Source of the DNA: Robinsoniella sp.
GTDB lineage: Bacteria > Bacillota > Clostridia > Lachnospirales > Lachnospiraceae
Reading direction: 5' to 3'
DNA: 64,000 bases
Assembly (NCBI GenBank): GCA_022788205.1
Contig: JALEVQ010000081.1
Span: 27,278-91,277 of the forward strand
Positions 47,809 through 50,870 of this stretch are shown here, piece after piece; position 1 is the first letter of the stretch; every line of letters starts with the position of its first letter. Both the position numbers and the translations under genes were made by a program. The notes beneath the pieces are model-generated. The model did no database searches and had not been told where the DNA came from. It was given only the letters and a program-made list of their open reading frames with translations.

Positions 47809-49533
47809 CTATCGATTATACAGCATCGCATAGATGCCATTTCTGTTTAAAAGTTCCTCGTGTGTTCCCTGTTCCTCAATTCCATTTTCCGTCAGCACCA
47901 AGATCTTCTCTGCGTTCTTGATCGTGCTCAGGCGATGTGCGATCACAAATGTTGTCCTGTTCTTTGCCAGTTCCTCCAGAGAATCCTGCACAATCTTTTC
48001 ACTCTCATTGTCAAGTGCCGATGTCGCCTCATCAAAAATCAGTATTGGCGGATTTTTCAAAAATACACGCGCGATTGATAATCTCTGTTTCTGTCCGCCC
48101 GACAGCTTCACGCCTCTCTGACCGATATCTGTGTGATATCCATTCGGCAGCTGCATGATGAACTCATGCGCATTGGCACGCTTCGCCGCCTCGATCACTT
48201 CCTCGTCCGTCGCATCTGGTTTTCCATAGCGAATATTCTCCATCACATCTTCCATGAACAGATAGACATCCTGCTGTACAATCCCGATGTGGTCTCTCAA
48301 ATCTTTCAGCTGAATCTCTCTGATATCGGTTCCATCCAGCAAGATCCGCCCCTTTTCCACTTCGTAAAAACGCGGTATCAGGCTGCAAAGTGTGGTCTTG
48401 CCTCCCCCGGAAGCTCCCACAATCGCCACATACTCACCGGCTTTTACTTTCAGGTTGATGTGATTCAGCACTCGCTCTTTGTTCTCCCCATATCCAAAGG
48501 AGACATCGTCAAACACAATCTCGCCCTTCACATCTCCGAGCAGACGGGCTCCCGGCTGATCCTCAATGTCCGGATGGACATCCAGAATCTCTAAGAAGCG
48601 CTCGTACCCACTGTACCCGTTCTGAAACTGCTCCGTAAAATTGATCAGTTTCTTCACTGGCTCTGTAAAATTGTTGATATACAGCAGGAAAGTAACCAGA
48701 TCCGTCACAACCATCTTCCCATTCGCCATCAGAATGGCTCCCACGATCAGAACTCCGATCGTGACCATTGTCGTGAGCGCTCCAAGACCCGAGTGGAACC
48801 ATGCCATGTACCAGTAACTCAACCGCTTTGTCTGGACAAACCGATCATTTCCGGCGCGAAATTTTCTCATCTCTTCTTTTTCATTCGCAAACGACTTGAC
48901 TACCCGTATGCCAGAAAGACTGTCCTCAATCTGACTGTTGATATCCGCTATCTTGGCACGGTTCTCCTTAAAAGCCCGCTTCATCTTCCTGTTAAAATAA
49001 TATGCATAGCCTGCCATGATCGGCACAAACGCATACGCCACCAGCGTCAGTGTGCCATTCACCTGAAACAAGATCACAAACGACCCGACAAATTTGATCA
49101 GGGAAATCACCACATCCTCCGGTCCGTGGTGTAAAAGCTCGCTGATATCAAACAAATCACTCGTCACTCTCGACAGCAGCTGCCCGACCTTCTGGTCATC
49201 ATAAAACGTAAAGGATAATTTCTGATAATGCTCAAAAATCTCATTTCTCATATCATGTTCCATCTTTGCTCCCATGATATGCCCACAGTATGTAATATAA
49301 AAATTACAGAAAAACTCCAGCACGACAAGCCCGACCATCAAAATGCCAAGCCTGACAATCTGCCTGAGTGGTTCACTCCCCTCCAGATACACAACCTCAT
49401 TTGTGATATACCGCACAATCAGCGGAATCACCAGCGTGACTGCCGCTCCGGTCAGGGCAAAAAACATGTCTGTCCAGAACAGCCTGCGATATGGCTTGTA
49501 ATATCCGATTAATTTTTTCCACTTATGTTCCAT
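47809..49533 (-). CDS. ABC exporter, fused permease/ATPase (MsbA-like)
   Basis: 6-TM N-terminal domain, Walker A GASGGGKTT and the LSGGQKQRLSIAR signature. The start is MEHKWKK, with a GGGAGG RBS. Confidence 0.8.
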   Translation of the reverse strand: MEHKWKKLIGYYKPYRRLFWTDMFFALTGAAVTLVIPLIVRYITNEVVYLEGSEPLRQIVRLGILMVGLVVLEFFCNFYITYCGHIMGAKMEHDMRNEIFEHYQKLSFTFYDDQKVGQLLSRVTSDLFDISELLHHGPEDVVISLIKFVGSFVILFQVNGTLTLVAYAFVPIMAGYAYYFNRKMKRAFKENRAKIADINSQIEDSLSGIRVVKSFANEKEEMRKFRAGNDRFVQTKRLSYWYMAWFHSGLGALTTMVTIGVLIVGAILMANGKMVVTDLVTFLLYINNFTEPVKKLINFTEQFQNGYSGYERFLEILDVHPDIEDQPGARLLGDVKGEIVFDDVSFGYGENKERVLNHINLKVKAGEYVAIVGASGGGKTTLCSLIPRFYEVEKGRILLDGTDIREIQLKDLRDHIGIVQQDVYLFMEDVMENIRYGKPDATDEEVIEAAKRANAHEFIMQLPNGYHTDIGQRGVKLSGGQKQRLSIARVFLKNPPILIFDEATSALDNESEKIVQDSLEELAKNRTTFVIAHRLSTIKNAEKILVLTENGIEEQGTHEELLNRNGIYAMLYNR

Positions 49534-49625
49534 CTCACATGAAGCCTCCCAATTGTAAAAAAGGAAAGCTGCTATGACCGAAAACGTATCACAGCACCTC
49601 CCCCAAATCACCTCATTCTTCTCTT

Positions 49626-49768
49626 CTTACCATAAAAGCCCAATCTCAGTGGACGGTAGACGGGTCGCTTGCGCACCTGGCTGCACGGACACTAGAGACG
49701 CTAACCCGTATGAGCAGAAAAGCCACGCGAATGAACGGAGCAATCCAATGGGCTTTTATAATTGGTAG
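49626..49768 (-). repeat. complete copy of the short intergenic repeat family (about 143 bp) with 17-21-bp terminal inverted repeats (CTTACCATAAAAGCCCA / TGGGCTTTTATAATTGGTAG)
   Basis: Lies between the prfA stop and the ABC exporter start. Its internal part is homologous to 28867-28937 and 9186-9230. Confidence 0.55.
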
Positions 49769-49793
49769 TGACGCCGTCAGGCGTCCTGTCCGT

Positions 49794-50870
49794 TTACTCT
49801 ACCTCATTGAGCTTGCTCAGACGAATTGCCTGATCTGCCGCAATCAAGCTGTCGATAATCTCGGATAAATCTCCGTTCATCACATCATCCAGTCTGTGCA
49901 GTGTCAGCTTGATTCTGTGATCTGTCACACGCCCCTGAGGGAAATTGTAGGTTCTGATCTTCTCCGAGCGATCCCCTGTTCCGACCTGGCTTCTTCTCGC
50001 TTCCGCCTCAGCGTCATGACGTTTCTCCAATTCCATCTCATACAGTCTTGAACGCAAAATTTTGAGTGCCTTGTCCTTATTTTTCAGCTGGGATTTTTCA
50101 TCCTGACAGGAGATCACAATTCCTGTAGGAATATGTGTCAGTCGAACCGCAGAATCTGTTGTGTTGACACACTGTCCGCCATTTCCAGAAGCGCGGAATA
50201 CATCAAATTTACAGTCGTTTAAGTCGAGCTGGAAGTCAATCTCCTCCGCCTCCGGCATAATTGCGACCGTAATTGTGGAAGTATGAATTCTTCCTCCGGA
50301 TTCAGTCTCTGGCACACGCTGTACACGGTGAACGCCGCTTTCATATTTCAGCTTTGAATACGCTCCTCTTCCGTTAATCATGAACACAGCTTCCTTAAAT
50401 CCGCCGATTCCATTTTCATTTAAACTCATCATCTCTGTCTTCCAGTGCTGCATATCTGCATATTTGACATACATTCTGTAAATCTCAGACGCAAACAGCG
50501 CTGCCTCATCTCCGCCGGCTCCGGCACGGATCTCTACGATTACGTTTTTCTCATCGTTTGGATCCTTCGGCAAAAGCAAAATTTTCAATTCATGCTCTAA
50601 CTCCTCGATGCGCTTCTTTGCCTCACTTAATTCTTCTTTGAGCATCTCGCGCATATCTTCGTCAGACTCTTCCTCGAGCATCGCCAGACTTTCTTCCACT
50701 GTCTCCTGGCATTTTTTATATTCCTTATAAGCGTCCACAATTGGCTGTAAGTCGCTTTGTTCTTTCATCAACTTCTGAAAGCGAGCCTGATCGTTTACCA
50801 CAGAAGGCTCATTTAATTCACTCATAATTTCTTCAAATCGGATCAACAAATCTTCCAATTTATCAAACAT
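49794..50870 (-). CDS. prfA: peptide chain release factor 1
   Basis: GGQ motif in context and the RF1 PxT-type domain. Confidence 0.85.

What the first reader, a model, noticed from the sequence alone, without database searches (positions are those of the whole stretch)
49626..49768. Short intergenic repeat family: one complete about 143-bp copy with terminal inverted repeats, two 3'-partial copies
49626-49768 is bounded by CTTACCATAAAAGCCCA and TGGGCTTTTATAATTGGTAG, which are inverted repeats. Its first roughly 72 nt recur at 28867-28937 at about 85% identity, and its 3' module recurs in opposite orientation at 9186-9230 at about 75%. All copies are intergenic. On the minus strand, copies 1 and 2 sit directly after the hom and prfA stop codons and ahead of the apgM/lysC and ABC exporter starts. 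The shared 3' end, CCAC(T/G)GAGA..GGGCTTTTA(T), forms a small GC hairpin plus U-tract, so the partial copies could act as terminator or attenuator modules. In the full copy the inverted repeats would close a long-range helix around a structured core of about 100 nt. It could be a MITE-like mobile repeat, a REP-like terminator family or a structured regulatory RNA.
Basis: seen in the sequence. Interest (0 to 1): 0.55.

Follow-up and report, generated by a model that had tools for sequence, protein, structure and literature searches.

The report
Species-specific MITE-like intergenic DNA repeat
This is a short DNA repeat, apparently confined to one uncultured gut Lachnospiraceae species, with one complete copy closed by inverted ends and two truncated copies; it looks like a small mobile-element relic inserted between genes, not a conserved regulatory RNA, so it is fairly ordinary.

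Summary
Three intergenic sites share a 60-90 nt G+C-rich module: 49609-49699(-), 28851-28937(-) and 9172-9241(+). Identity is 77-81% (E 2e-19 to 3e-11). Only the 49.6-kb copy is complete, closed by a perfect 11-bp inverted repeat (ATAAAAGCCCA/TGGGCTTTTAT, 49632-49642 and 49749-49759; p about 0.003).

It matches no Rfam family and shows no compensatory base-pair changes. An ORF across it has no homologue. The nearest relatives (88-91% protein identity) lack it at both orthologous sites checked. There, prfA is followed directly by the terminator that the window keeps at 49557-49604, so the element lies inside the prfA 3' UTR.

A 23-nt signature matched by all three copies found only chance hits in 185,579 species genomes, JGI metagenomes and IMG/VR. 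Within the species the copies are fixed. k=31 assemblies from five samples break inside copy 1, at positions that one further near-identical copy elsewhere would explain.

Best reading: a low-copy, lineage-restricted MITE-like interspersed repeat (compare Bacillus cereus bcr repeats) with 5'-truncated relics. Target-site duplication, genome-wide copy number and a partner transposase could not be tested. The terminator and riboswitch readings are weak. Interest is low.

The parts
49632..49759 (-). Complete copy (copy 1), 128 bp from inverted end to inverted end.
   Evidence: The element folds as one closed structure: -47.7 kcal/mol, z -2.8 on the - strand; -53.8 kcal/mol, z -5.1 on the + strand.
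49749..49759 (-). 5' terminal inverted repeat arm. It reads ATAAAAGCCCA on the - strand.
   Evidence: An inverted repeat of at least 11 bp arose in 6 of 2000 shuffles of the spacer.
49632..49642 (-). 3' terminal inverted repeat arm. It reads TGGGCTTTTAT on the - strand. This end is shared with copies 2 and 3.
   Evidence: In strain L008 the inferred identity with a further copy ends exactly at 49632.
49609..49699 (-). Shared right-arm module of copy 1, the part homologous to copies 2 and 3. It consists of an outer helix GUCUCUAGUG/CACUGAGAU, an imperfect GCAA-capped hairpin, and then UGGGCUUUUAU.
49700..49748 (-). Left half of copy 1. No other copy of it exists in the 80 kb examined.
   Evidence: nhmmer with the full element matches only the right-arm module elsewhere.
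28851..28937 (-). Copy 2: a 5'-truncated copy with the right-arm module only, starting 8 nt after the hom stop codon.
   Evidence: It is identical in 5 contigs from the same species and absent from relatives L025 and L026.
9172..9241 (+). Copy 3: a shorter 5'-truncated copy, antisense to both flanking genes. It abuts the T-run of the fumarate hydratase terminator.
   Evidence: It is identical in 4 contigs from the same species.
49557..49604 (-). Ancestral prfA intrinsic terminator (long hairpin plus U6). It is not part of the repeat; the element sits upstream of it.
   Evidence: minimum-energy structure. It is homologous to the hairpin in relatives L021 and L022, which lack the element.
49770..49785 (-). 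GC hairpin GACGCC-TGAC-GGCGTC between the prfA stop codon and the element. It is absent from relatives and may have arrived with the insertion.
28779..28847 (-). Long hairpin (29-nt arms, 86% complementary) next to copy 2. It is part of the same roughly 205-nt lineage-specific insertion.
   Evidence: (I1).

Best explanation
This is a lineage-restricted, low-copy, non-autonomous interspersed DNA repeat of the MITE type.

The complete unit is about 128-143 bp. It is non-coding, richer in G+C (52-65%) than the genome (46%), and bounded by the inverted ends ATAAAAGCCCA...TGGGCTTTTAT. Such ends are what a transposase supplied in trans would recognise.

The complete unit was inserted between the prfA stop codon and the pre-existing prfA terminator. 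Copies 2 and 3 are 5'-truncated relics that keep only the right arm. At least one further near-identical copy probably exists elsewhere in the genome, which would mean recent spread.

Shown here: the repeat itself, the inverted ends, its absence from relatives, and its fixation within the species. Inferred: transposition as the means of spread, the existence of the extra copy, and any effect on the host.

Because copies 1 and 2 lie on the sense strand inside transcription units, their hairpins are probably carried passively in the prfA 3' UTR and the hom-apgM spacer. There they could mildly affect RNA 3'-end stability or read-through.
For: The repeat is significant at three sites and in both orientations.

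The 11-bp perfect terminal inverted repeat is rare by chance: an inverted repeat of at least 11 bp arose in 6 of 2000 shuffles.

It is not coding. The 64-aa ORF across it has no homologue among 1.84 billion representative proteins, and a six-frame chimeric query found nothing.

Relatives have sites without it:
- The prfA-ABC spacer of relatives at 91% and 88% protein identity has only the terminator plus a promoter and 5' UTR.
- The hom-apgM spacer is 82 nt in L026 and unrelated AT-rich sequence in L025.
- nhmmer finds no copy in any locus from a relative.

Distribution is narrow. A pattern that all three copies satisfy gave only chance hits in GTDB species genomes, JGI metagenomes and IMG/VR. 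Plasmids and phages gave nothing.

Assembly breaks point to a further copy. Logan contigs from the prfA side (three samples) end at 49706. Contigs from the ABC side start at 49673 (C allele at 49665), at 49695 (A allele) or at 49661 (strain with C at 49643). With k=31, all four break points fit one extra sequence that is identical over 49735-49644 and, in the last strain, up to the element end at 49632.

G+C content is 0.52-0.66, against 0.46 for the window.
Against: Only one complete copy was seen. The two ends therefore cannot be compared between copies, and no clear target-site duplication is visible. TTAT/TTTAT or AT at the junctions cannot be separated from the inverted repeat itself.

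Only three copies occur in about 80 kb. The whole genome could not be searched, so copy number is unknown. No partner transposase or IS with the same ends was found or could be looked for.

The extra copy is inferred from assembly break points and from my knowledge that Logan contigs use k=31. It was not observed, and co-occurring strains could mimic the pattern.

The relatives differ at species level, so the sites without the element do not give exact insertion boundaries. Loss in the relatives is not formally excluded. The three copies are 77-81% alike, so most of the spread is old.
Confidence: 0.55

Rival explanations
1. A REP-, BOX- or SPRITE-like structural repeat kept for its function in RNA. 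The shared 3' module (imperfect hairpin, small GC hairpin, U-run) would act as a transcription terminator, an attenuator or a 3'-end stabiliser after hom and prfA. It would spread by recombination rather than transposition.
For: Copies 1 and 2 lie on the sense strand directly after stop codons. Copy 1 has a minimal terminator-like site, GTCCA-CTGAGAT-TGGGC followed by TTTTAT. Copy 2 folds into a 9+11-pair hairpin of -28.7 kcal/mol, z -1.9. Both one-sided changes in the outer helix between copies 1 and 2 keep the pairing (A to G, U to C).
Against: The small hairpin has only 5 pairs and 4-5 U. It fails the scan in copies 2 and 3, and in copy 3 two of its pairs are lost.

At copy 1 the conserved prfA terminator lies about 30 nt downstream of the element and exists in relatives without it. 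Termination after prfA therefore does not depend on the element.

Copy 3 is antisense to both neighbours. The copy 1 module alone folds no better than shuffles (z +0.6). There are no compensatory changes.
Confidence: 0.17
2. A family of paralogous structured RNAs: a cis-regulatory leader or riboswitch for the downstream ABC exporter and the apgM-lysC genes, plus a free-standing small RNA at copy 3.
For: Copies 1 and 2 lie upstream of genes and are each followed by a hairpin. Copy 3 lies downstream of a strong promoter-like site, TTGAAA-16-TATAAT at 9068-9095(+), scoring 11 of 12, and upstream of a bidirectional terminator. The full element folds better than shuffles.
Against: No Rfam family matches any copy, even at E up to 10.

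The element is absent upstream of the orthologous ABC exporter and apgM genes in the nearest relatives, and the signature found nothing in 185,579 species genomes.

None of 14 consensus pairs is compensatory. Three of the five differences between copies 1 and 2 in the central hairpin break pairs (read from alignment A1).

The hairpin after copy 1 is simply the ancestral prfA terminator. The downstream genes share no functional theme.
Confidence: 0.08
3. Remnants of a larger element rather than a MITE. Examples are the right end of an IS200/IS605-type element or its PATE derivative, or att-like scars of an integrative element. This would explain why the copies share one end only and show no target duplication.
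For: Two of the three copies keep only the same end, with a subterminal imperfect hairpin. No target-site duplication is evident. Copies 1 and 2 are both followed by GTAAG (CTTAC on the other strand), which recalls the TTAC-type target of IS608. That comparison is from my own knowledge and is a lead, not a test. At copy 2 the lineage-specific insertion is about 205 nt, larger than the module.
Against: The complete copy has a true terminal inverted repeat, which IS200/IS605 ends lack. No transposase, TnpB or integrase gene lies near any copy. No Rfam IS605-orfB or omega-RNA family matches. Phage and plasmid collections gave no match.
Confidence: 0.15

Closest known systems
Bacillus cereus group bcr repeats (bcr1-bcr18)
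   Same: These are lineage-restricted interspersed repeats of 100-400 bp in a Firmicute. They are mostly intergenic and their distribution is not conserved between related strains. Some families average only about two copies per genome. Mobility is linked to a TTTAT motif (PMC6542083; PMC3184786). Here every copy ends in GGGCTTTTA(T/C), and copy 3 abuts TTTTTTAT.
   Different: There is no sequence similarity, and the host is a Lachnospiraceae. The 5-bp direct repeats that flank bcr1 could not be shown here. The bcr1 RNA fold shows compensatory changes; this repeat shows none.
Bacterial MITEs (e.g. Correia/nemis elements, RUP)
   Same: Under 200 bp, non-coding, with terminal inverted repeats around a core. 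The element folds into a long stem-loop, inserts in intergenic regions in either orientation, and is co-transcribed with neighbouring genes (review PMC3184786).
   Different: Classic MITE families have tens to hundreds of copies, clear target-site duplications and often a recognisable parent IS. None of these three features could be shown. Two of the three copies seen are one-ended.
SPRITE and REP-type terminator-like repeats
   Same: A G+C-rich hairpin followed by a U-run, located after stop codons (PMC3184786; PMC3733652).
   Different: The hairpin and U-run are weak and are not conserved in all copies. The module, at 60-90 nt, is longer than the 20-40 nt of REPs. The GTAG head occurs only in copy 1, while copies 2 and 3 have GCAG. 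Termination after prfA is provided by a separate conserved terminator.

Membership tests
MITE (miniature inverted-repeat transposable element) | Terminal inverted repeats bounding the unit | tested here: met
   11-bp perfect inverted repeat at 49632-49642 and 49749-49759, with a gapped extension. An inverted repeat of at least 11 bp arose in 6 of 2000 shuffles. This rests on the one complete copy only.
MITE (miniature inverted-repeat transposable element) | Target-site duplication (direct repeats) flanking the unit | tested here: inconclusive
   The flanks are CCAATT | element | GGTAAG. Only AT or TTAT can be read as a direct repeat, and that overlaps the inverted repeat itself. No second complete copy, and no empty site in a close relative, was available to fix the boundaries.
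MITE (miniature inverted-repeat transposable element) | Small (under about 400 bp) with no transposase or other ORF | tested here: met
   128-143 bp. The one 64-aa ORF across it has no homologue.
MITE (miniature inverted-repeat transposable element) | Multiple dispersed copies with presence/absence differences between related genomes | tested here: met
   Three copies in 80 kb. The element is absent from two orthologous sites in relatives. A further copy is inferred from assembly breaks. No presence/absence polymorphism was seen within the species.
MITE (miniature inverted-repeat transposable element) | A parent IS or transposase with matching ends in the same genome or lineage | not testable with these tools
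   The rest of the genome could not be searched by DNA.
REP/BIME | A 20-40 nt imperfect palindrome with a conserved GTAG or CGTC head, in high copy number, associated with a RAYT transposase | tested here: not met
   The module is 60-90 nt. The head is GTAG in copy 1 but GCAG in copies 2 and 3. Density is low, and no RAYT gene lies in the 80 kb examined. Genome-wide copy number was not tested.
Intrinsic-terminator repeat (SPRITE-like) | A stable GC-rich stem immediately followed by a U-run in every copy, oriented with transcription | tested here: not met
   Only copy 1 passes a minimal scan, with 5 pairs. Copies 2 and 3 fail. Copy 3 is antisense to its neighbours.
Riboswitch or cis-regulatory RNA family | Conservation upstream of orthologous genes across taxa, with covarying helices, or a match to a curated family | tested here: not met
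   No Rfam match. Absent in relatives. No compensatory pairs (only 4 sequences, so power is low).
bcr-like repeats of Firmicutes | A lineage-specific interspersed repeat associated with TTTAT motifs at its junctions | tested here: inconclusive
   The copies end in TTTTAT, TTTTAC and TTTTAT, and copy 3 abuts TTTTTTAT. Flanking duplications could not be shown. There is no sequence relationship to bcr, so the resemblance is an analogy only (PMC6542083).

The most novel reading that the evidence does not exclude
The repeat is a still-active MITE family confined to one uncultured Lachnospiraceae species, and its right-arm module has been taken over as an RNA element. At copy 3 it would be the body of a free-standing small RNA of about 180 nt, driven by the TTGAAA-16-TATAAT promoter at 9068-9095(+). 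At copies 1 and 2 it would modulate read-through from prfA into the ABC exporter, which in this species has lost its own promoter, and from hom into apgM-lysC.
Probability: 0.08. Interest if true: 0.4.

Novelty: new member of a known kind. Interest (0 to 1): 0.2.

Why it matters
The value is mostly for annotation. The finding marks three G+C-rich intergenic blocks in this Lachnospiraceae species as repeat DNA rather than riboswitches or terminators, and it explains why short-read assemblies of the species break downstream of prfA.

If more copies and a partner transposase were found, this would be one of the few small non-autonomous elements described in gut Lachnospiraceae, and a possible strain-typing marker.

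The insertion also coincides with a rearranged prfA-ABC exporter junction, where the exporter's own promoter and leader are lost. That gives a small natural example of operon rewiring near a repeat.

Tried and rejected
Rfam, at gathering thresholds on the whole window and at E up to 10 on each copy, gave nothing at the copies. The only hit is an unrelated cobalamin riboswitch.

The pattern CCNTCCNCTGAGANNGGGCTTTT gave only hits with no upstream homology: one in genome contigs and three in metagenome contigs. A shorter pattern gave six in viral contigs. All are chance matches.

Distant blastn against plasmids and phages found no match.

I tested the coding hypothesis because the three copies share an open frame (KSP[IV]S[VA][DE]GR..AC) and a 3-nt indel. 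I rejected it for three reasons:
- Variable sites show no clear codon periodicity: 6 of 14 fall at third positions where 4.7 are expected. This is my own count from alignment A1.
- The ORF has no homologue.
- A chimeric six-frame query found nothing. That search was largely wasted.

I looked for extra copies in the remaining parts of the source contig that could be reached (10 kb and 6 kb) and found none. One look-up failed because I guessed the start codon wrongly.

Hammerhead, integron attC, Tn3-end and IS630 (TA duplication) resemblances were considered by eye. Each rests on 9 nt or fewer, or fails a defining position, so I dropped them.

A literature search for MITEs in Lachnospiraceae returned nothing relevant.

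Full report
**Observation**

The shared 3' end CCRCTGAGAYYGGGCTTTTA occurs exactly three times, at 9208-9227(+), 28874-28893(-) and 49633-49652(-). None is expected by chance, even with three mismatches allowed. A second shared block, GCAGCCAGGTGYGCAAGC, marks the same sites.

Pairwise blastn of the three intergenic spacers gives:

| Pair | Identity | E-value | Coordinates |
|---|---|---|---|
| copy 1 vs copy 2 | 74/91 (81%) | 2e-19 | 49609-49699 vs 28851-28937 |
| copy 1 vs copy 3 | 51/66 (77%) | 3e-11 | 49620-49684 vs 9176-9241 |
| copy 2 vs copy 3 | 48/59 (81%) | 2e-12 | copy 3 at 9175-9233 |

It is the strongest dispersed repeat in the window (D3). Only copy 1 is complete. It is closed by a perfect 11-bp inverted repeat, ATAAAAGCCCA (49759-49749 on the - strand) and TGGGCTTTTAT (49642-49632). 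An inverted repeat at least that long arose in 6 of 2000 shuffles of the spacer. The left half of copy 1 (49700-49748) has no other copy in anything examined.

**Context**

- Copy 1 lies between prfA (49794-50870, -) and an ABC exporter (47809-49533, -).
- Copy 2 lies 8 nt after the stop codon of hom (28948-30180, -), upstream of apgM and lysC.
- Copy 3 is on the opposite strand, between a fumarate hydratase beta gene (9338-9889, -) and a phosphopantetheinyl transferase gene (8291-8974, -). It is therefore antisense to both neighbours.

The window is 99.9% identical to contig JAXEMP010000123.1 of GCA_034099945.1, a Lachnospiraceae MAG. The nearest named relatives are Murimonas, Marvinbryantia and Robinsoniella.

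**No match to a known RNA family, and not coding**

Rfam gives no match at any copy, either at gathering thresholds or at E up to 10. RNAalifold on the four available variants gives a weak consensus of -8.95 kcal/mol, with none of 14 pairs changed on both sides.

Reading alignment A1, the central GCAA-capped hairpin is best in copy 2. In copy 1, three of the five differences break pairs. A population variant (A to C at 49665) repairs one of them. The outer helix GUCUCUAGUG/C(A/G)CUGAGA(U/C) is kept in copies 1 and 2 by two one-sided changes, but its 5' strand is missing in copy 3. With so few sequences this has little power, yet nothing points to selection for a fold.

An ORF of 64 aa crosses the element, and the three copies share an open frame. 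However, variable sites show no clear codon periodicity, the ORF has no homologue among 1.84 billion representative proteins, and a six-frame query found nothing.

**Comparative evidence**

This is the decisive part.

In the two nearest relatives for which I could fetch the prfA-ABC exporter junction (exporter 91% and 88% identical), the spacer has no trace of the element. prfA is followed by a long hairpin with a U-run, then a TGATATAAT promoter and a leader of about 100 nt. That hairpin is homologous to window 49557-49604, which is also the dominant terminator-like structure in the fold of the window spacer.

So in the window species the element, together with a small GC hairpin at 49770-49785, sits between the prfA stop codon and the pre-existing prfA terminator, inside the prfA 3' UTR. 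It is not the terminator itself.

At the hom-apgM junction, one relative (89%) has an 82-nt spacer and another (91%) has 360 nt of unrelated AT-rich sequence. The window species has a lineage-specific block of about 205 nt made of the module plus a 29-nt-arm hairpin (28779-28847).

nhmmer with the module finds no copy in any locus from a relative. A 23-nt pattern with 19 fixed positions, which all three copies satisfy, found only chance hits in 185,579 species-representative genomes, in JGI metagenomes and in IMG/VR. Plasmid and phage collections gave nothing.

Within the species, all three copies are fixed, and copies 2 and 3 are identical across samples.

**Evidence for a further copy**

Logan contigs that carry prfA end at 49706 in three samples. 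Contigs that carry the ABC exporter begin at 49673 (three samples with C at 49665), at 49695 (a sample with A at 49665) or at 49661 (a strain with C at 49643).

Logan assemblies use k=31 (my own knowledge, not tested here). On that basis a contig stops k-1 bases into a stretch that is shared with another path. All four break points are explained by one additional sequence in every sample. That sequence would be identical to copy 1 over 49735-49644, carry C at 49665 and C at 49643, and match up to 49632, which is exactly the last base of TGGGCTTTTAT.

Copies 2 and 3 share no 31-mer with copy 1, so they cannot be that sequence. I read this as at least one more, near-identical, copy elsewhere in the genome, and hence recent duplication. 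This is an inference. A mixture of strains in every sample could mimic it.

**Interpretation**

The following features fit a non-autonomous, MITE-like interspersed repeat whose truncated copies keep only the right arm:
- small size and no coding capacity
- inverted ends
- higher G+C than the genome (0.52-0.66 against 0.46)
- occurrence in both orientations
- insertion into intergenic DNA
- absence from orthologous sites in sister taxa
- a very narrow host range
- one-ended relics
- a probable young copy

The closest described analogues in Firmicutes are the Bacillus cereus bcr repeats. Those are lineage-restricted, 100-400 bp, sometimes present at only about two copies per genome, and associated with TTTAT motifs (PMC6542083, PMC3184786). 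Here every copy ends in GGGCTTTTA(T/C), but the resemblance is an analogy, not homology.

Three defining MITE features could not be established:
- Target-site duplication. It is ambiguous because AT or TTAT at the junctions overlaps the inverted repeat.
- Genome-wide copy number.
- A parent transposase.

**Rival readings**

The terminator-family reading is weak. The shared small hairpin has 5 pairs and 4-5 U. It passes a permissive scan only in copy 1, copy 3 is antisense, and prfA already has its own conserved terminator.

The regulatory-RNA reading fails on conservation and covariation.

A reading as the end of a larger IS200/IS605-like or integrative element is not excluded. However, the true terminal inverted repeat argues against it, as does the lack of any nearby transposase or omega-RNA match.

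**Verdict**

The finding is a new, narrowly distributed member of a known kind of element, and its interest is low.

Noticed in passing
window 22440-22632 (-): Cobalamin riboswitch: Rfam RF00174, 93.7 bits, E 5e-22, full length. It is the only Rfam gathering-level hit in the window.
   Followed up: no
window 49534-49604 (-), compared with L021:1380-1582 and L022:515-708: Relatives have an extended -10 promoter (TGATATAAT) and a leader of about 100 nt between the prfA terminator and the ABC exporter. The window species has only TACAAT followed directly by the ribosome-binding site. The exporter has apparently lost its own promoter and leader, and may depend on read-through of the prfA terminator.
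   Followed up: partly
window 9068-9095 (+) and about 9236-9283: A strong promoter-like site, TTGAAA-16-TATAAT (11 of 12), points into copy 3. A bidirectional terminator hairpin follows (AAAAAGAGACCG...CGGTCTCTTTT). Together they could define a small RNA of about 180 nt containing the repeat module. A promoter-like site on the - strand overlaps it.
   Followed up: no
window 28779-28847: A long hairpin with 29-nt arms, 86% complementary, separated by 11 nt, directly downstream of copy 2. Like the module, it is absent from the hom-apgM spacer of relatives.
   Followed up: partly
window 31359-31579: Three tandem copies of a 78-nt unit (65 nt aligned, 83-88% identity), apparently inside a coding region (D1).
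   Followed up: no
window 1-9000 and L036:5005-15005: A biosynthetic gene cluster. It contains a double ketoacyl synthase (817 aa), an acyl carrier protein, a FabA-like dehydratase, a condensation domain, a glycosyltransferase, an ABC-2 exporter and, at 8291-8974, a phosphopantetheinyl transferase.
   Followed up: no
L025:2640-3001: In a relative with 91% identical apgM, the hom-apgM spacer is 360 nt of AT-rich sequence with short tandem AATAAATAATTGATAAAT-like repeats. This spacer is therefore a hotspot for lineage-specific insertions.
   Followed up: no
window 49665 and 49643: Population variants inside copy 1. A to C at 49665 restores a G-C pair in the GCAA-capped hairpin (L007, L009, L011). 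T to C at 49643 (L008) matches the base found in copies 2 and 3.
   Followed up: partly
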